This document shows, one piece after another, positions 1,263 through 15,105 of a DNA stretch of 15,105 bases (within the stretch, counting starts at the first letter, position 1; each line of letters opens with the position of its first letter). This DNA is from a virus. The position numbers were made by a program, and so were the translations under genes. The stretch is from the UHGV virus genome UHGV-0264650, one strand, 5' to 3'. The notes beneath the pieces were generated by a model that did not search any database, was not told the origin of the DNA, and saw nothing but the letters and a program-made list of their open reading frames with translations.

Positions 1263-1564
1263 GATTTAACCTCATGCAAAATGTGATCTATGTATCTATT
1301 TTATACAAAATGTCTTTATTTTAACGATACCGTTTTGTATAGGTGATGTAGAGAAAGATAGAAGAGATGCAGGAAGGCCGGATGTCCCGGAGGAAGTGAA
1401 AGAGGATAAGAAAATGAGAAACGTAAACTACCGCCCCAACGAATATGAACGCTATGCGAACCTTATCGAAGAAATGTTAAAAACACTTAAAAAATAAACA
1501 ATATGCGTGTATAACTAAGTTAAAGAAAGCATTTAGCAAATCAGAATAATTACAGGGGTTGATT

Positions 1565-1978
1565 ATGAAACGGTTAGCAAAAATGGTGCTTGCTGTGATT
1601 GCTGCACTAGCATTTAACGCTAACGCTAACGAGGCCATAAACATTAACTGTGAAGAAGTGGCAAACCATGTAGCCGCATATCACGACATGATCAAAAAAG
1701 AACCAGCCGCACCCACAATTCTTTTTAAGGCAATTGATAAAAATTTTGAAGGTAAACCAGTTTATGCTCGTTGGTTTAATTATGGCCTTGTAAACGAGGC
1801 TGCTGTAGGCGTAGTCTTTGAAAACAACAGCGAAATAAAAAACAGGATAGCTAACGAGTGTAAAGCAAATAAAGTTGCTTTCGCTGAAAGAATTTTTAAT
1901 GAAGGCGGCGCTGGTGCAAAAAATCACGCAATTGTCGATTTAGGTAACGGTTTTATTGATATTGTTAGAATCAAATAA
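1565..1978 (+). CDS. Moron: secreted/periplasmic protein of unknown function (137 aa) with a cleavable signal peptide
   Basis: Only convincing plus-strand gene. ATG at 1565 preceded by AGGGG SD with 6-nt spacer (the ORF-track start at 1559 is a TTG). N-terminus MKRLAKMVLAVIAALAFNANA-NEA is a typical Sec signal peptide with an AXA cleavage site; the mature part has two Cys. Sits in an AT-rich segment opposite in orientation to the structural operon, behind a ~300-bp AT-rich intergenic region. Confidence 0.6.
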   Translation: MKRLAKMVLAVIAALAFNANANEAININCEEVANHVAAYHDMIKKEPAAPTILFKAIDKNFEGKPVYARWFNYGLVNEAAVGVVFENNSEIKNRIANECKANKVAFAERIFNEGGAGAKNHAIVDLGNGFIDIVRIK

Positions 1979-10273: not shown

Positions 10274-11752
10274 TTAAAATCCGCGCAGGCGTTTAGGTAA
10301 CATAAGACCCATCGCCTGTGGTTGGCTTAATTCAGTGATCCCCCATACCATCGCATCCATACGGTCAGGGGATTTTTTAGCGGTAGCTGGCACATATTCC
10401 ATCATTTGATTTTCCAGCGTGTATAGCTCACCAGTGTGTGCCACCCTTCCTTGTGCATACAGTGCCGATATTGGTTCAGCGCGGGCGAATTTACCTTTAC
10501 TTGCGTGCACCTTAACAATGCGGCCTTTGAATCCGGCATTGCGTAGTGTGGCCTCTGCCATATCACCACCCTGGTTGGTTTCGATAACCATCGCGTCAGC
10601 TTCATGGATGTTGTAGGCGTTCATTGATGCCTGCGCCCAGTCGTTAGGTGACATACGGCCTGAATAGTCGCCATCAACAGAATACTGAGCATTCTTGCCA
10701 CCACCATAAGCGGAACATGCCATGATCCCCGTTTCGTCCGACTCATCAGATGATGTTGTCGCCGGGTCAATGGCTATCACAGTGCGGATTTTCTCCTGCG
10801 TTATCTGCATTCGGTGTGCTGCGGTTATCATTGCTTCAGTCCACAATGCGCCTTCTTCGTCGAATTTACGCGGGCGCTGCATGTACTGGGCTTCAAATGA
10901 CCGTCTGTGCGCCTTCAGTCCGGCTTCATGGGTGTCATTGTGTTTTTTAGGCCATAGCCAGCCGTCCGGCAGGTTGTGAGCGATAGGAATGGCGAACTCG
11001 TTTTCAGGGTACAGATCCCAATAATCCAGGCTGTTGTCGATCTTCACTGGCAGGTTAAGGTGATACCACTTTTCACCACTGCCGCCGCGTAACAGGTAGC
11101 CGGACAAATCATCGTAGTGGATGCGCTGCATGATGACGATAACAGGCGTTGTTTGCACTGCCAGACGCGATGCAAGCGTATCGTTATAGTTGGTGTTCAC
11201 CTGCTTTCTCACCACGTCAGAGTAAGCGTCAGCGGGTTTTAATGGGTCGTCGATGATTAACGCGCCATTAAATCCTGATTCCATGTACCCCGCACGGAAC
11301 CCGGTCACCTGACCAAGTGATGACGTTGCATACACGCCGCCGCCGTATTCGGTCCACCACATCGATTTTGAGTTGGCATCGTTGCGGATCTTCATGGGCC
11401 ACATTGCCTGATAGTCAGGCGTACAGATCATGTTTCTTACAGTCGAGGAGTTGAGTAGCGCCAGGTTGTTGGAATAGGAAACGTGAAGGAATCTTGTGCG
11501 GGGATTTATTGCGAGGGACCGCGCCATCATATTGATAGTCGCGATCATGGTTTTGCCGTACCCTGGGGGAATGTTAATGATGAGTCGGGTTATCTCACCA
11601 TTAATAACGCGTTGCAGTGCATCACGGATGGCTAAATGATGGCCTGAGATTAACATCTTCGTTCCGTTCGCTTGTTTATAGAAGTAGCGATTGAAAAACA
11701 GGCCATCGTTTTCACATTTGGACTGAATAACTCGTTCTTTGATTGTCAACAT
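10274..11752 (-). CDS. terL: Terminase large subunit
   Basis: ORF-track ORF 10274-11758 starts at GTG; the ATG at 11752 has GAGGTG 5 nt upstream and lies 2 nt after the TerS stop. Contains a Walker A-like P-loop (PPGYGKT), a Walker B-like hydrophobic stretch ending in acidic residues (GALIIDDP), and a C-terminal region with conserved acidic residues (VIAIDPATTSSDESDETG) consistent with the nuclease domain. Confidence 0.85.
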   Translation of the reverse strand: MLTIKERVIQSKCENDGLFFNRYFYKQANGTKMLISGHHLAIRDALQRVINGEITRLIINIPPGYGKTMIATINMMARSLAINPRTRFLHVSYSNNLALLNSSTVRNMICTPDYQAMWPMKIRNDANSKSMWWTEYGGGVYATSSLGQVTGFRAGYMESGFNGALIIDDPLKPADAYSDVVRKQVNTNYNDTLASRLAVQTTPVIVIMQRIHYDDLSGYLLRGGSGEKWYHLNLPVKIDNSLDYWDLYPENEFAIPIAHNLPDGWLWPKKHNDTHEAGLKAHRRSFEAQYMQRPRKFDEEGALWTEAMITAAHRMQITQEKIRTVIAIDPATTSSDESDETGIMACSAYGGGKNAQYSVDGDYSGRMSPNDWAQASMNAYNIHEADAMVIETNQGGDMAEATLRNAGFKGRIVKVHASKGKFARAEPISALYAQGRVAHTGELYTLENQMMEYVPATAKKSPDRMDAMVWGITELSQPQAMGLMLPKRLRGF

Positions 11753-11754
11753 AA

Positions 11755-12240
11755 TCACACCTCATCTTCAACTTCCTGGACGATGCGGGCGATCTCTTCT
11801 TTCGTTACTTCAACCCGGACGGGTGCTTCCTCCCTGTTGCCGACGATCTCCTGTGTGACGCGTTCACCATATTTACGCGGTTGCAGTTTTGCCAGTAACC
11901 ACTTGCGCGTTTCAATCATCAGTTGATGGCGGCGGCATTCATCTTTATCAATGTTCTCCGCTGCATCGGCTATATCTATGATTTCATCAGCCAATACCTC
12001 AAACCCTATTTCCTTCGCGCGTATGTACATGTCCGAAAACTCCGGAACATCTCTGAACCATTTAAGGATTGTCGAACGCGTTGGCATACCTGGCATCTTC
12101 GAGATCTTATTAATACTCTTACCGTCCGCCACCAGCTCACAGATCTCTAATGCCTTTTCTTCGGTATAACCATGCGGACGGCCCACCCTTTTTGCGGCTG
12201 GCTTTTTATCGTCAGCCTTCGCCTTTTTCGTGCGGGCCAT
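11755..12240 (-). CDS. terS: Putative terminase small subunit
   Basis: 161-aa ORF directly upstream of and translationally coupled to TerL. Basic N-terminus (MARTKKAKADDKKPAAKRVGRP) followed by a helix-turn-helix-like segment, acidic C-terminus. SD GAGGTG 4 nt upstream of ATG 12240. Confidence 0.7.
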   Translation of the reverse strand: MARTKKAKADDKKPAAKRVGRPHGYTEEKALEICELVADGKSINKISKMPGMPTRSTILKWFRDVPEFSDMYIRAKEIGFEVLADEIIDIADAAENIDKDECRRHQLMIETRKWLLAKLQPRKYGERVTQEIVGNREEAPVRVEVTKEEIARIVQEVEDEV

Positions 12241-12250
12241 AATTCACCTC

Positions 12251-12496
12251 TTAATTATCTTTTTCAAATCTTAATTTAAATTCATTCATCATCTTTTCTA
12301 CTTCCTGTTCGGAAAGATAGATGGTTTCATTATTTTCTGCTGAATCAAGTGCCTTTCTTATTTCATCTGCTATTTTTAGCTCCTCATCGTTCACAACGTC
12401 ACCTTTTAATATTTGTTGATGATATATACGCAAGCCACAAAACTTGCGCAGTATGTTAATACTTCCAACCAGTCGAATAGCTCTTTCACTGTTCAC
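12251..12496 (-). CDS. AT-rich hypothetical protein (81 aa from GTG 12496, or 47 aa from GTG 12394)
   Basis: Open frame ends 10 nt before the TerS start. The first in-frame start (GTG 12496) has GAAGG only about 1 nt upstream; the internal GTG at 12394 has AGGTGA 4 nt upstream. Acidic product (..DEELKIADEIRKALDSAENNETIYLSEQEVEKMMNEFKLRFEKDN). Noticeably AT-richer than the neighbouring terminase genes. Confidence 0.4.
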   Translation of the reverse strand: MNSERAIRLVGSINILRKFCGLRIYHQQILKGDVVNDEELKIADEIRKALDSAENNETIYLSEQEVEKMMNEFKLRFEKDN

Positions 12497-12499
12497 CCT

Positions 12500-12571
12500 T
12501 CACATAATCGAAAGCGCCCATGTAATAAGGACGATAGCCAAAACCATATAGATAAAATCTGACTCTCTCAT
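12500..12571 (-). CDS. Mini-ORF 9 of array: 23-aa hydrophobic peptide MRESDFIYMVLAIVLITWALSIM
   Basis: ATG 12571 with strong SD AAGGTGG 5 nt upstream; the SD overlaps the stop of mini-ORF 8. One predicted transmembrane helix. Confidence 0.4.
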   Translation of the reverse strand: MRESDFIYMVLAIVLITWALSIM

Positions 12572-12585
12572 ATTGTCCACCTTAC

Positions 12586-12654
12586 TTACGCAAAGAAAAT
12601 GATAACAGTTAACAGCGAACTTATAGCCATGATTAAGAAATCGCGGTCAGACAT
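12586..12654 (-). CDS. Mini-ORF 8 of array: 22-aa hydrophobic peptide MSDRDFLIMAISSLLTVIIFFA
   Basis: ATG 12654 overlaps the 3' end of mini-ORF 7 (out of frame); only a weak GGGG about 10 nt upstream. Hydrophobic C-terminal half. Confidence 0.25.
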   Translation of the reverse strand: MSDRDFLIMAISSLLTVIIFFA

Positions 12655-12721
12655 TGATAATAAACCCCACAATAACAACCGCTGCGATACATACGAATAA
12701 TACAGCTTCGATAGTTTCCAT
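12647..12721 (-). CDS. Mini-ORF 7 of array: 24-aa hydrophobic peptide METIEAVLFVCIAAVVIVGFIINV
   Basis: ATG 12721 with SD AGGTGA 4 nt upstream, overlapping the TAG stop of mini-ORF 6 (TAGGTGA-N4-ATGGA). Resembles mini-ORF 4 at the N-terminus (M-D/E-x-x-E ... C at position 11). Confidence 0.4.
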   Translation of the reverse strand: METIEAVLFVCIAAVVIVGFIINV

Positions 12722-12729
12722 ATATTCAC

Positions 12730-12798
12730 CTATTGAGTCAGCGCGGTCATGGTAAGAACAATCGCAACGATCAGGAAAAAGAAATCAAGCCATTTCAT
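12730..12798 (-). CDS. Mini-ORF 6 of array: 22-aa hydrophobic peptide MKWLDFFFLIVAIVLTMTALTQ
   Basis: ATG 12798 overlaps the TGA stop of mini-ORF 5 (ATGA); SD GGGAG 8 nt upstream. Confidence 0.35.
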   Translation of the reverse strand: MKWLDFFFLIVAIVLTMTALTQ

Positions 12799-12860
12799 TT
12801 TTTAAACTCCCGATAAACATCTACGGCAATGACTACAACTACAGCCACCAGCAATAGCAT
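12795..12860 (-). CDS. Mini-ORF 5 of array: 21-aa hydrophobic peptide MLLLVAVVVVIAVDVYREFKK
   Basis: ATG 12860 lies 1 nt after the stop of mini-ORF 4 (TGA-G-ATG); weak SD, so expression would depend on coupling. Confidence 0.25.
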   Translation of the reverse strand: MLLLVAVVVVIAVDVYREFKK

Positions 12861-12861
12861 C

Positions 12862-12969
12862 TCATATGCGTTCATTGACACTACCTATAACCAGACCAAT
12901 GATGATAATTACGGCTACTACGCCCAACATCATTCCGCACATAATAGCCAGTAGTTCGAATATATCCAT
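12862..12969 (-). CDS. Mini-ORF 4 of array: 35-aa hydrophobic peptide MDIFELLAIMCGMMLGVVAVIIIIGLVIGSVNERI
   Basis: ATG 12969 with SD AGGTGA 4 nt upstream, overlapping the TAG stop of mini-ORF 3. This is the C-terminal part of ORF-track ORF 12862-13074, whose N-terminal half is a read-through of intergenic and other-frame sequence. Confidence 0.4.
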   Translation of the reverse strand: MDIFELLAIMCGMMLGVVAVIIIIGLVIGSVNERI

Positions 12970-12977
12970 GCAGTCAC

Positions 12978-13052
12978 CTATACAACATTTTTCCACCAGA
13001 AATAGATAATGACGGCGACCAACGACCACCAGATAGGACCGTAAATATTCAT
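12978..13052 (-). CDS. Mini-ORF 3 of array: 24-aa hydrophobic peptide MNIYGPIWWSLVAVIIYFWWKNVV
   Basis: ATG 13052 with GAAGG 8 nt upstream; Trp-rich single hydrophobic segment. Confidence 0.3.
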   Translation of the reverse strand: MNIYGPIWWSLVAVIIYFWWKNVV

Positions 13053-13130
13053 GGTGAATACCTTCAGCTTTCAATGAATATCATGATCGCCAGCCATACA
13101 GCGACGCATAAAGAAAGGATAACGAGCGGG

Positions 13131-13247
13131 TCAATCATCTCGCCCCTCCAACCAGTGCTTGATCTTTGCGTTTATTAGTGCAACTGCAATAAAACCCACC
13201 AGATATACAGAAATGCCGATCAATCCGGCAATGATATAATCATCCAT
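13131..13247 (-). CDS. Mini-ORF 2 of array: 38-aa membrane peptide MDDYIIAGLIGISVYLVGFIAVALINAKIKHWLEGRDD
   Basis: ATG 13247 with GGTGA 8 nt upstream (the SD lies in the last codons of mini-ORF 1). One hydrophobic helix followed by a charged C-terminal tail. Confidence 0.35.
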   Translation of the reverse strand: MDDYIIAGLIGISVYLVGFIAVALINAKIKHWLEGRDD

Positions 13248-13251
13248 AACA

Positions 13252-13320
13252 TTATTCACCGACCAGTAATATTACAGCGGCAGCCATTCCGATAAATAAA
13301 CCTGACAGAAAAGTAAGCAT
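13252..13320 (-). CDS. Mini-ORF 1 of array: 22-aa hydrophobic peptide MLTFLSGLFIGMAAAVILLVGE
   Basis: ATG 13320 lies 2 nt after the TGA stop of the 185-aa gene, with GGGGGTGA immediately upstream (coupled start). Confidence 0.35.
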   Translation of the reverse strand: MLTFLSGLFIGMAAAVILLVGE

Positions 13321-13322
13321 AA

Positions 13323-13880
13323 TCACCCCCGTTTAAAGCTCATAACACGCGGTACAAGCGCTTCTTTTGCTTTCGGCTTACGTTTGCCTTTCTTAGCTGG
13401 TTTTTGCTTGTCTTTTGCCTCATTAGCAATATCCCTTGCCTCTTGTGCGCTAAGACGTTCGGTTACTTCTTCTGCCTGCATTGCTGCAACCTGTGCTTCG
13501 TTTGATTCATCCAGGATTGGGAAGAATGCGTCAAAGATGCGGCCTACCATGTAAGCGTAAGTCTCGTTCGCCGGATGAGTTGGATCAGTGGTCGCCACGA
13601 CGCCAACATCACTTAGAACGTGGAATGTAGTGTGGGCCGCTTCATATACCAGTGTTCCTAACTCATTGTCGAATACTGCGATCACATAGAAATTACCGCC
13701 TTTCTCACCAGTACAAGTAAGCGTTAATCCTCCTGCCAGTTCGAAATCAGGTTCGATTGGTATTCCGGCCCTTTCGCAAAATTCATAAAACATGTCGCGG
13801 GTCGGGCAGAAGAAAACTGTTGTATGCTCAAAGAGCGGAACTTTGAATTGAGGCAACTTAATGCCTTTAGCCTTAGCCAT
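13323..13880 (-). CDS. Hypothetical protein (185 aa) with a globular N-terminal region and a highly basic Lys-rich C-terminal tail
   Basis: ATG 13880 with GAGGA 8 nt upstream. C-terminus EAKDKQKPAKKGKRKPKAKEALVPRVMSFKRG. Lies between the lysis cassette and the mini-ORF array. I could not assign a family from the sequence alone. Confidence 0.55.
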   Translation of the reverse strand: MAKAKGIKLPQFKVPLFEHTTVFFCPTRDMFYEFCERAGIPIEPDFELAGGLTLTCTGEKGGNFYVIAVFDNELGTLVYEAAHTTFHVLSDVGVVATTDPTHPANETYAYMVGRIFDAFFPILDESNEAQVAAMQAEEVTERLSAQEARDIANEAKDKQKPAKKGKRKPKAKEALVPRVMSFKRG

Positions 13881-14158: not shown

Positions 14159-14629
14159 TTATTCTTTGCGTATGCACTGCGTCTTGATGTAGTCCTGCAA
14201 TCCGGTGATCTTCGCGTCTTTCTCTTTTAGTTGTTCTCTGAGGGATAGATAAGCCGATTCAGCGTCGGGAGTGAGTCTACAGGCGGCTCCATCAATGGCG
14301 CTGGCGGTTCCGGTGGGGTCGGACACTCGCACGGGCGTTGCGTTGACGCGCAACCGGATAGTACCGTTATCAATGCCAGTGCGCAGATCGGCAATGTCAG
14401 ATCTGATAGCTTTAATCTCATCGTGATACCTCTTATCAAGTTTTGACAGTTCGGCGTTTCGCTCCTTCATCTGCTGAATAGTGTTACTTGCCGTCTTCAG
14501 TGCGCCTTTCGTCACCGTGACTTGTTCCTGTAACCTTGCCGCCTCACCCTGGTAATAACACGTTACGGCGGTCAGCCCGGCAATAATGCAAACAACAACG
14601 GCGATGATTAACGTCTTCACCTTGTCCAT
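14159..14629 (-). CDS. Rz: Rz-like inner-membrane spanin (i-spanin)
   Basis: 156 aa, start overlapping the 3' end of the endolysin gene by 13 nt. N-terminal transmembrane segment ([17 protein letters not shown]) followed by a long charged, coiled-coil-like periplasmic domain. Position and the embedded Rz1-like ORF match the lambda Rz/Rz1 architecture. Confidence 0.8.
14227..14421 (-). CDS. Rz1: Rz1-like outer-membrane lipoprotein spanin (o-spanin), embedded in the +1 frame of Rz
   Basis: ORF-track ORF 14227-14439 starts at a TTG; the ATG at 14421 has AGAGGT 6 nt upstream. Product [26 protein letters not shown]... has a signal peptide with lipobox LSGC, then a Pro-rich mature region ([14 protein letters not shown]). 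Lies entirely within Rz. Confidence 0.75.
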   Translation of the reverse strand: MRLKLSDLTLPICALALITVLSGCASTQRPCECPTPPEPPAPLMEPPVDSLPTLNRLIYPSENN

Positions 14630-15105
14630 TTTTCACCCCATTCGCAAACGGCATATTCAACATCTCGGCGGTTTACCAGGCCTTGCCACTTCTTACCACC
14701 AGCGTATACCCAGCGTTTAAGCTGTGCGCACGCTTCCGATTTCTTGCCGTCATTAAGTAGCTTTAATAAGGTTGATGTTTTGAAGTTGGTTGCGCCTACG
14801 TTATAGGCGAATGAATAAAGTGCTGCGCGGGTAAAATCTGATATTTCGACTTTGATATATGGGTCAATCGCTTTTGCGGTCTTGTGTAGATCTTTATTTA
14901 ACAAAGCATCGCATTCTGATTGCGTGTAAGTCTTACCAAGCATGATGTCTTTTCCGACGTGTCCATAACATATCGTGTAAACACCGATGACATCTCTGTA
15001 TGGCTTATACTCAACGCCTTCAAGATCTTTTATCATCACCGCCGCAATAGCGATCGCCCCACCAGCCGACGCCGCAACAATCTTGTTTTTCAGCGATTGG
15101 CTAAT
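14617..15105 (-). CDS. SAR endolysin (T4-lysozyme-like muramidase with signal-arrest-release N-terminus); 5' end lies beyond the right edge of the window
   Basis: The frame is open from the window edge: ...[49 protein letters not shown]... A Gly/Ala-rich weakly hydrophobic segment (a SAR domain) precedes a catalytic E-8-D-5-T triad (E in DLEG, D in YRD, T in VYT). The in-window start codons (15039/15036) fall inside the SAR domain, so the real start is upstream of the window. Confidence 0.85.

What the first reader, a model, noticed from the sequence alone, without database searches (positions are those of the whole stretch)
12251..12496. AT-rich acidic small protein gene immediately upstream of TerS, with an ambiguous start
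The gene sits 10 nt upstream of the small terminase and directly after the mini-ORF array, in the same AT-rich block. The product is acidic and predicted helical, with no recognisable motif. The first in-frame start (GTG 12496) lacks proper SD spacing, while an internal GTG at 12394 has a perfect AGGTGA 4 nt upstream, so the real product may be only 47 aa. It could be a partner of the hydrophobic peptides (antitoxin- or chaperone-like) or an unrelated moron.
Basis: partly seen in the sequence, partly recalled or inferred. Interest (0 to 1): 0.45.

Follow-up and report, generated by a model that had tools for sequence, protein, structure and literature searches.

The report
Optional 47-residue acidic phage gene
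The 81-codon reading frame is really a conserved 47-residue acidic helical protein gene of unknown function, carried on an optional 155-bp cassette just before the small terminase of an mEp021-like coliphage, while its apparent front end belongs to a neighbouring 27-residue membrane mini-gene read in another frame.

Summary
The ORF at 12251-12496 (minus strand) exists as described. It is AT-rich, ends 10 nt before an Sf6-type TerS, and matches no family.

Comparison with 30 related loci settles the start. The gene is the 47-aa version, 12251-12394, with GTG here and ATG in 6 of 8 alleles, behind AGGTGA. It is under purifying selection (pN 0.069 against pS 0.446).

The upstream 34 codons are not part of it. 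Relatives break that frame with TAA stops or a 1-nt deletion. All 13 substitutions there are synonymous in an overlapping 27-aa hydrophobic mini-ORF (12406-12489), the last member of the mini-ORF array.

The gene sits on an exact 155-bp cassette flanked by the 10-bp repeat TAARAGGTGA (stop plus Shine-Dalgarno). The cassette is present in 5 of 35 matching complete E. coli records, and 14 others join mini-ORF and TerS directly. No promoter or terminator rises above chance.

The product has pI 4.4 and is a predicted helix-loop-helix. It is an orphan, with no relatives among 1.84 billion representative proteins and no fold match.

No mini-ORF or TerS variant co-occurs with it, so an obligate antitoxin or chaperone role is not supported. 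Function remains inferred: probably an accessory acidic binding protein. Ordinary, low-to-moderate interest.

The parts
12251..12394 (-). Real gene. It encodes a 47-aa acidic helix-loop-helix protein, (M)NDEELKIADEIRKALDSAENNETIYLSEQEVEKMMNEFKLRFEKDN, with a GTG start and TAA stop.
   Evidence: Homologues begin with ATG at this codon in 6 of 8 distinct alleles, and PGAP annotates the 47-aa form as WP_021537953.1. pN/pS is 0.069/0.446 against L008. AF2 model. Coordinates checked.
12399..12404 (-). Shine-Dalgarno AGGTGA for the 47-aa gene, 4 nt (CGTT) before GTG 12394.
   Evidence: GGTGA plus 4 nt plus a start codon is conserved in all 8 alleles. TerS uses the same SD type with a 3-nt spacer. 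In mEp021, TerS and TerL are annotated with AGGTG ribosome-binding sites.
12395..12496 (-). Apparent 34-codon N-terminal extension of the 81-aa ORF. It is not part of the gene; the frame is open here by chance.
   Evidence: Relatives have an in-frame TAA 6 codons upstream in the L004, L018 and L021 types, a 1-nt deletion in L016, and no ATG or GTG start in L005. Where the frame is open, its upstream start positions vary (-34 here and in L022; -36 and -4 in L008; -47 in L012). Of the 11 substitutions fully inside this stretch that can be classified singly, 3 are synonymous in this frame, 6 are missense and 2 nonsense (CAA>TAA); the two changes in MagusPhagus's TTG>CTT codon are set aside.
12406..12489 (-). 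27-aa hydrophobic mini-ORF 'm11', (M)KELFDWLEVLTYCASFVACVYIINKY, with a GTG start here and ATG in most relatives. It is the last member of the mini-ORF array.
   Evidence: The peptide is identical in every locus except mEp021, and it has 11 distinct nucleotide versions. All 13 internal substitutions are synonymous in this frame. Two diverged variants keep the length and hydrophobic pattern: 27 aa in mEp021 and L029, 28 aa in L030. The SD AAGGG lies 6 nt upstream.
12399..12408 (-). Upstream copy of the 10-bp direct repeat, TAAAAGGTGA. It is the stop codon of m11 plus the SD of the acidic gene.
12244..12253 (-). Downstream copy of the repeat, TAAGAGGTGA. It is the stop codon of the acidic gene plus the SD of TerS.
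   Evidence: Cassette-less relatives have a single copy, T[AG]AGAGGTGA, between m11 and the TerS ATG.
12244..12398 (-). The 155-bp facultative cassette, defined as the indel relative to cassette-less relatives.
   Evidence: The alignment shows a clean indel. Fourteen complete E. coli genomes match the flanks in two pieces; the twelve that match the whole query span 446 nt, which is 601 minus 155.
11755..12240 (-). Sf6-type small terminase (161 aa), the gene immediately downstream.
   Evidence: PF20901 at 7.3e-37 and phrog_1482 at 1.4e-49. PDB 3HEF (Sf6 gene 1 protein) at 2.3e-28.

Best explanation
Shown:
- The 246-nt ORF is a composite. Only its last 144 nt (12251-12394) are a gene.
- That gene encodes a 47-aa, soluble, strongly acidic helix-loop-helix protein. 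It is translated from GTG 12394 behind AGGTGA.
- The first 102 nt are an accidental open frame. They lie over the 27-aa hydrophobic mini-ORF m11 (12406-12489), which is read in another frame.
- The 47-aa gene and its SD form an exact 155-bp optional cassette, bounded by the direct repeat TAA-RAGGTGA (stop codon plus SD).
- The cassette sits between m11 and the Sf6-type TerS in a minority of mEp021-like (mEpimmI) E. coli prophages.
- The insertion regenerates the native stop-SD-ATG context of TerS.

Inferred from anatomy:
- With only 10-11 nt on either side, and no promoter or terminator above chance, it is transcribed as part of the lysis-packaging late operon.
- It is translated from its own SD, possibly coupled to termination of m11.

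Inferred, low confidence (about 0.3):
- The product is an accessory protein. It is not needed for packaging or for the mini-peptides.
- It acts by stoichiometric binding, as a negatively charged helical hairpin or small bundle.
- Its target would be a basic, probably nucleic-acid-binding, protein. The most likely target is a host factor or defence sensor active late in infection, in the manner of small acidic phage DNA mimics.

The confidence value refers to the whole statement. The gene model and the cassette stand at about 0.9.
For: Start site:
- ATG sits at the position of GTG 12394 in 6 of 8 alleles, and the GGTGA SD is conserved.
- PGAP annotates the 47-aa form.
- Ten 47-aa clusters were seen on roughly 260 contigs.

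Selection:
- pS 0.446 against pN 0.069 versus L008, in this frame only.

Extension is spurious:
- In-frame stops, a frameshift and missing starts in relatives.
- 13 of 13 substitutions are synonymous in the m11 frame.
- GTG 12496 has 0-nt SD spacing, whereas that same SD sits 6 nt before the m11 start.

Cassette:
- Clean 155-nt indel with a 10-bp repeat.
- 5 of 35 complete-genome records carry it, and 14 have the m11-TerS junction without it.
- Four further genomes that I inspected also lack it.
- It is absent from all 50,697 INPHARED phage records, including the six mEp phages.

Operon embedding:
- No promoter or terminator above shuffled expectation.
- All neighbouring genes are on the same strand, downstream of a Q-like antiterminator.

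Product:
- pI 4.36, net charge -7.5, GRAVY -1.12.
- Two-helix hairpin, pLDDT 79.8.

Accessory status:
- TerS of the cassette-bearing L016 and L018 differs by 1 residue from that of cassette-less mEp010.
- No mini-ORF co-occurs with it.

Small size combined with high acidity is associated with DNA mimicry in phage proteins such as T7 gp5.9 and lambda Gam (PMC9836394).
Against: - There is no experimental or homology evidence for any function.
- The family is an orphan.
- Known DNA-mimic or anti-defence proteins are usually early genes, whereas this one lies in the late operon.
- Acidity and helicity are weak, non-specific predictors.
- The hairpin model rests on a shallow alignment of 13 sequences at 85% identity or more, with pTM 0.34.
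- The invariable position next to TerS could mean a packaging role instead.
- Direction of the event, insertion versus deletion through the repeat, is not established.
Confidence: 0.55

Rival explanations
1. The full 81-aa ORF from GTG 12496 is the real product. It would have a basic N-terminal third fused to the acidic hairpin.
For: - The frame is open in this window.
- Gene callers produced 81-94-aa models in four clusters.
Against: - In-frame TAA stops in the L004, L018 and L021 types, a frameshift in L016, and no ATG or GTG start in L005.
- Where the frame is open, the start position is not conserved.
- Substitutions there are synonymous in the overlapping m11 frame but missense or nonsense in this one.
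- The SD abuts the GTG with 0-nt spacing.
- The same out-of-frame ORF is called in cassette-less mEp044, where it ends before TerS (P0015).
Confidence: 0.03
2. It is a packaging accessory that binds TerS, either its basic N-terminal arm or its oligomerisation hairpin. It would tune pac recognition or terminase assembly.
For: - In every locus inspected the gene lies 10-11 nt upstream of TerS.
- The first 30 residues of TerS are strongly basic, pI 10.2.
- Residues 8-21 resemble TerS 83-96 (8 of 14 identical, single-comparison E 0.012). From my knowledge of the Sf6 gp1 structure, that segment lies in the oligomerisation helices.
- The single BFVD hit is a TerS, that of phage phiKT, with a 20-aa local match.
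Against: - The same TerS, 1 residue different, works without it in mEp010.
- It occurs with both the 161-aa and the 171-aa TerS types.
- The TerS similarity is not significant once searches are counted: E 0.14 within the window, shuffle p of 0.025-0.04, hhalign probability 4.9%, BFVD E 7.4 and probability 0.04.
- PF20901 does not match it.
Confidence: 0.15
3. It is a partner of the hydrophobic mini-peptides, acting as antitoxin, chaperone or regulator.
For: - It lies directly after the array, on the same strand, and is presumably in the same transcript.
- Its physico-chemistry is complementary: soluble and acidic against membrane peptides.
Against: - The array is present without it in mEp010, mEp021, MagusPhagus, N921 and at least 14 complete genomes.
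- No mini-ORF family is restricted to cassette-bearing loci.
- There is no RHH or HTH fold, and no antitoxin family match.
Confidence: 0.08
4. The peptide itself is irrelevant. The cassette would be a translational spacer or leader, or selfish filler, whose only effect is on TerS translation.
For: - It is tightly packed between two stop-SD-start junctions.
- It is facultative.
Against: - Clear purifying selection acts on the amino-acid sequence, with a pN/pS ratio of about 0.15 and conservative replacements.
- Length and stop position are identical in all alleles.
Confidence: 0.05

Closest known systems
The same gene, annotated as a 47-aa 'hypothetical protein' in E. coli prophages (RefSeq WP_021537953.1 and WP_185737921.1)
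   Same: 94-98% identical over all 47 residues. It occupies the same position 10-11 nt upstream of the Sf6-type TerS in mEp021-like prophages.
   Different: Most copies start with ATG, whereas this window and L022 use GTG. No function is attached to any copy. One JGI label, 'glycine/serine hydroxymethyltransferase', is spurious: 14 bits against a cut-off of 335.
Morons, the accessory gene cassettes of lambdoid phages (Hendrix/Juhala concept; cited from my own knowledge)
   Same: It is present in some closely related genomes and cleanly absent from others. It is inserted exactly between two conserved genes, and it is markedly more AT-rich than its flanks.
   Different: Classical morons carry their own promoter and terminator and are expressed from the prophage. 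This cassette has neither. It is wedged into the late operon with 10-11-nt spacers.
Small acidic helical phage DNA-mimic proteins: T7 gp5.9, lambda Gam, possibly P22 Arf (PMC9836394)
   Same: It is very small, strongly acidic (pI 4.4 against 4.0 for gp5.9) and all-helical. [quoted passage not shown]
   Different: There is no sequence or fold similarity to any solved structure. The prediction is an antiparallel hairpin, not a parallel coiled coil braced by a beta-sheet. It is a late-operon gene rather than an early one. No binding data exist.
Oligomerisation helices of Sf6 gp1-type TerS (PDB 3HEF)
   Same: A 14-residue local match, IADEIRKALDSAEN against LADEIIDIADAAEN. Both are helical-hairpin elements.
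   Different: The match is not significant: hhalign probability is 4.9%, and there is no PF20901 match. It does not extend beyond one helix.

Membership tests
47-aa hypothetical protein family of mEpimmI prophages (WP_021537953.1) | Full-length similarity over 47 residues | tested here: met
   85-98% identity to 12 homologues across all 47 residues.
47-aa hypothetical protein family of mEpimmI prophages (WP_021537953.1) | Same genomic position, between mini-ORF m11 and TerS | tested here: met
   All 18 loci with the gene inspected, plus this window, have this arrangement. L024, L025 and L027, found later, match too.
Classical moron | Present or absent at a precise site among close relatives | tested here: met
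   Exact 155-nt indel.
Classical moron | Own promoter and terminator flanking the gene | tested here: not met
   There are no sites above shuffled expectation. Only 10-11 nt separate it from each neighbouring ORF.
Classical moron | Deviant base composition | tested here: met
   GC 29.9% against 47.0% for the window and 49.6% for TerS. Part of this follows from the K/E/N/D/I-rich composition.
Classical moron | Expression from the repressed prophage | not testable with these tools
   Needs transcript or protein data from lysogens.
DNA-mimic proteins (gp5.9, Gam, Ocr type) | Small size and high negative charge | tested here: met
   47 aa, 14 Asp or Glu residues, pI 4.36, net charge -7.5.
DNA-mimic proteins (gp5.9, Gam, Ocr type) | Sequence or fold relationship to a known mimic | tested here: not met
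DNA-mimic proteins (gp5.9, Gam, Ocr type) | Binds and blocks the DNA-binding site of a target protein | not testable with these tools
   Needs pull-down, structure determination or multimer modelling.
Type II antitoxin or dedicated chaperone of the mini-peptides | Strict co-occurrence with its partner gene | tested here: not met
   The array is present without it in most relatives, and no mini-ORF family tracks it.
Type II antitoxin or dedicated chaperone of the mini-peptides | Recognisable antitoxin fold or family (RHH, HTH, Phd, etc.) | tested here: not met
   No Pfam or NCBIfam match. The prediction is a bare two-helix hairpin without a strand.
Sf6_terminase (PF20901) or a TerS fragment | Profile match to the TerS family | tested here: not met
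   PF20901 is not listed at E up to 1. hhalign probability is 4.9% over 15 columns.

The most novel reading that the evidence does not exclude
The 47-aa acidic hairpin is a new late-expressed counter-defence or masking protein. It would be made together with TerS and TerL, and would act as a nucleic-acid or partner-helix mimic. Its role would be to blind a host nuclease or sensor that acts on packaging-stage DNA ends or recognises terminase. Alternatively it could cap the basic DNA-binding arm of TerS. It would spread between mEpimmI phages as a self-contained stop-SD-bounded cassette.
Probability: 0.15. Interest if true: 0.55.

Novelty: new member of a known kind. Interest (0 to 1): 0.25.

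Why it matters
Practical points:
- The analysis fixes a gene model. The product is 47 aa, not 81-94 aa, in several hundred database entries.
- It shows that the region upstream encodes a conserved 27-aa membrane mini-protein. RefSeq (PGAP) annotation misses it in all nine E. coli chromosome loci examined, and in phage mEp044 an out-of-frame ORF is called over that stretch.

Biological points:
- It documents a very clean example of how a tiny gene can be slotted into a phage operon. The insertion duplicates a 10-bp stop-plus-Shine-Dalgarno junction, so the translation signals of the downstream essential gene are left intact.
- The mEpimmI coliphages are a recently defined, gut-prevalent group (PMC11893012) whose accessory genes are uncharacterised.
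- If the product proved to be a late-acting counter-defence or terminase-modulating factor, it would be a compact new tool and a new family. As it stands, it is one more small phage ORFan.

Tried and rejected
- Family libraries. Pfam, PHROGs, PADLOC and NCBIfam gave nothing. The only listed hits score far below their cut-offs: Complex1_49kDa, the DNA pol III finger domain, NAMPT_N, YlbF/YmcA and SHMT.
- Remote homology. The word-indexed search of 5.8 billion proteins returned only 15 near-identical hits. The full HMMER profile search of 1.84 billion representatives returned only the family's own two clusters.
- Other collections.
  - tblastn against phages gave only a weak hit, E 3e-3, inside a 297-aa Klebsiella JD001 protein. 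I took this as compositional.
  - Plasmids gave noise.
  - GTDB species representatives gave none.
  - IMG/VR gave two loci of the same type.
- TerS-derived hypothesis.
  - The local 14-aa match to TerS 83-96 has pairwise E 0.012, shuffle p of 0.025-0.04 and window-wide E 0.14.
  - hhalign probability is 4.9%. I rejected this as evidence of homology and kept it only as a lead.
- Paralogue within the window: none.
- RNA element. No Rfam match at E up to 1 in 11700-13400.
- Autonomous transcription unit. Promoter and terminator counts are at shuffled expectation.
- Co-variation. Presence of the cassette does not track any TerS variant or any mini-ORF.
- Alternative cargo at the m11-TerS junction: none in four further genomes.
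- Not attempted. A whole-prophage co-occurrence analysis for a distant partner gene was begun but not completed. The sample is small and the genomes are mosaic.

Full report
**Context.** The window is the late region of an mEp021-like temperate coliphage. [quoted passage not shown] The genes lie on the minus strand in this order:
- lysozyme (14617-15039)
- Rz (14159-14629)
- a conserved 185-aa protein of unknown function (13323-13880, phrog_1365)
- a run of about 11 tiny hydrophobic ORFs (13326-12406)
- the ORF in question (12251-12496)
- an Sf6-type small terminase (11755-12240; PF20901 at 7e-37; PDB 3HEF at 2e-28)
- the large terminase (10274-11758)

The closest deposited phages are MagusPhagus and mEp010, mEp013, mEp044, mEp021, mEp515 and mEp554.

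**Observation.**
- The ORF is 81 codons long, starts at GTG 12496 and ends 10 nt before the TerS ATG.
- GC is 32.9%, or 29.9% for the last 144 nt. The window is 47% and TerS about 50%.
- An internal GTG at 12394 is preceded by AGGTGA and a 4-nt spacer. At GTG 12496 the purine run abuts the start codon.
- The C-terminal 47 residues have pI 4.36 and net charge -7.5. The 34-residue extension is basic, pI 10.3.
- No family library recognises the protein.

**Which start?** The protein search returned 15 near-identical proteins.
- Ten are 47 aa long and begin MNDEELK, with ATG exactly where the window has GTG 12394. These ten were seen on roughly 260 contigs.
- Four are 81-94 aa long.
- One is an unrelated ORF call from mEp044.
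- RefSeq annotates the 47-aa form as WP_021537953.1 and WP_185737921.1.

I collected 19 sequences carrying the gene (18 loci plus the window), representing 8 distinct alleles.
- Within the 47 codons, the most divergent allele (L008) differs at 20 of 144 nt.
- For that pair, pS is 0.446 and pN is 0.069. The two alternative frames show no such bias.
- The 47-aa frame is therefore a protein-coding gene under purifying selection.

The 34-codon extension behaves differently.
- Three allele types (L004, L018, L021) have an in-frame TAA six codons upstream of the ATG.
- L016 has a 1-nt deletion that shifts the frame.
- L005 has no ATG or GTG start in the frame.
- Where the frame is open, the possible starts lie at different positions: -34, -36 and -47.

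**What the upstream 102 nt really encode.** The alignment of relatives shows a conserved block of about 100 nt upstream of the acidic gene. In another frame it contains a 27-codon ORF, window GTG 12489 to TAA 12406. The peptide is (M)KELFDWLEVLTYCASFVACVYIINKY.
- The peptide is identical in every locus except mEp021, although there are 11 distinct nucleotide versions.
- All 13 internal substitutions are synonymous in this frame, counting TTG>CTT in MagusPhagus as Leu>Leu.
- In the 81-aa frame, most of these same changes are missense and two are CAA>TAA nonsense; only three are silent.
- Two diverged variants keep the length and hydrophobic pattern. One is MKYLSSWFGVSIYFATLIECLYIVNKF in mEp021 (MKDLSSLLGVSIYFATLIECLYIVNKF in L029). 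The other is MKELFDFLEMVTYCATLIACLYILCKWF in L030.
- The AAGGG that abuts GTG 12496 sits 6 nt before this ORF's start, so it is this ORF's SD.

The '81-aa protein' is an artefact of a chance-open overlapping frame. The same artefact was annotated in cassette-less mEp044 as mEp044_76 (P0015), where it stops before TerS.

**A 155-bp optional cassette.** In N921, MagusPhagus, mEp010 and mEp021, the mini-ORF's stop codon is followed directly by GAGGTGA, 3 nt and the TerS ATG. In the window the arrangement is TAAAAGGTGA-CGTT-[47-aa ORF]-TAAGAGGTGA-ATT-ATG.
- The gene lies between two copies of a 10-bp stop-plus-SD motif. The difference from the cassette-less state is exactly 155 nt, at 12244-12398.
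- 35 complete E. coli genome records match this module.
  - Five have the cassette, two of which look like the same chromosome.
  - Fourteen match the flanks in two pieces; the twelve that match the whole query span 446 nt, which is 601 minus 155.
  - Thirteen match only TerS, and three match only the mini-ORF.
- Four of the thirteen TerS-only records were inspected. All have an m11 variant abutting TerS and no other cargo.
- None of the 50,697 deposited phage genomes carries the gene. Neither does any plasmid or any GTDB species representative. IMG/VR has two loci, both of this kind.
- The cassette occurs with both the 161-aa TerS (with 492-aa TerL) and the 171-aa TerS (with 504-aa TerL).
- The TerS of cassette-bearing L016 and L018 differs by one residue from that of cassette-less mEp010.
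- A presence/absence matrix of the 11 mini-ORF families against the cassette shows no family restricted to cassette-bearing loci.
- Promoter-like and terminator-like sites are at shuffled expectation, and there is no Rfam match.
- With 10-11-nt spacers, the gene can only be expressed as part of the same-strand late transcript that runs from a Q-like antiterminator through lysis into packaging.

**The product.** AlphaFold2, run on a shallow alignment, gives helix 3-20, loop 21-28 (NNETIYLS) and helix 29-43. Mean pLDDT is 79.8. From the sequence, both helices are amphipathic, so a hairpin that dimerises or docks on a partner is plausible. That last step is inference.

Every search for relatives failed:
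- 1.84 billion representative proteins
- PDB by sequence
- Foldseek against PDB
- BFVD

Two weak resemblances to small terminases were followed up. One is the match of residues 8-21 to TerS 83-96. The other is a 'YLSEQE' match to phiKT TerS. They did not survive shuffling or profile comparison.

**Interpretation.**

Shown:
- The gene is 47 aa long and under purifying selection.
- It is optional and cleanly bounded.
- It is embedded in the late operon.
- It is independent of any particular TerS or mini-ORF variant.

Inferred:
- It is an accessory factor, not a core packaging component.
- It is not an obligate partner of the membrane peptides.
- Given its size, charge and helicity, it most plausibly works by binding a basic, nucleic-acid-binding protein. 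This would be the manner of small acidic phage mimics such as T7 gp5.9 or lambda Gam (PMC9836394), but at the late stage.

I put about 0.3 on that mode of action, about 0.15 on a TerS-directed role, and less than 0.1 on a role as a mini-peptide partner. It fails the membership test for a classical moron because it has no promoter or terminator of its own. It fails the test for every known protein family I tried.

**Verdict.**
- The proposed link to the mini-peptides is not supported.
- The gene is an already-annotated hypothetical ORFan, now with a resolved gene model and a well-defined cassette structure.
- The main value is the corrected annotation, the recognition of mini-ORF m11, and a neat example of insertion at a stop-SD junction.
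- Interest is low to moderate, at 0.25.

Noticed in passing
window 12406-13326, minus strand: About 11 tandem ORFs of 21-42 aa, each a single hydrophobic helix, packed end to end between the 185-aa gene and TerS. The set varies between related phages. Members m3, m6, m7 and m11 are near-universal and the others come and go. RefSeq (PGAP) annotates none of them in the nine E. coli chromosome loci I fetched; the Pharokka-style and PHANOTATE annotations of MagusPhagus and mEp010 call some of them.
   Followed up: partly
window 12406-12489 and the equivalent in L001-L032: Mini-ORF m11 (27-28 aa) always ends 9-11 nt before the next start codon, whether TerS or the acidic gene, with the SD directly after its stop. 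It exists in three protein variants. It might act as a translationally coupled leader for TerS.
   Followed up: partly
P0015 (mEp044_76): The annotated 51-aa protein of phage mEp044 is read in the wrong frame across m11. It is the same artefact that creates the 81-aa ORF here.
   Followed up: partly
P0005: One JGI source names the 47-aa protein 'glycine/serine hydroxymethyltransferase'. The only basis is a 14-bit similarity to the C-terminus of PRK00011, whose cut-off is 335 bits.
   Followed up: yes
L004, L005, L006, L026 and L027, portal gene downstream of TerL: RefSeq labels the portal (PF06381 Phage_portal_3) as 'anti-CBASS protein Acb1 family protein'. This looks like a naming error.
   Followed up: no
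L012-L015, L019, L021 and L027 compared with the window and L004, L008, L016: TerS comes in two forms that differ only in the C-terminal tail, 161 aa and 171 aa. Each form is paired with its own TerL type, 492 aa and 504 aa. This is consistent with a co-swapped TerS-tail and TerL module.
   Followed up: no
window 1559-1978, plus strand: A low-GC block (36-39% across roughly 1200-2100) lies inside the tail genes. Within it is an opposite-strand ORF whose product starts with a signal-peptide-like sequence, MKRLAKMVLAVIAALAFNANA. In strain FAH the corresponding place holds two opposite-strand genes, one labelled 'TagO'.
   Followed up: no
window 13323-13880, minus strand: A 185-aa protein (phrog_1365, no Pfam match) is conserved in all relatives between Rz and the mini-ORF array. 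Its function is unknown, and its C-terminus is Lys-rich.
   Followed up: no
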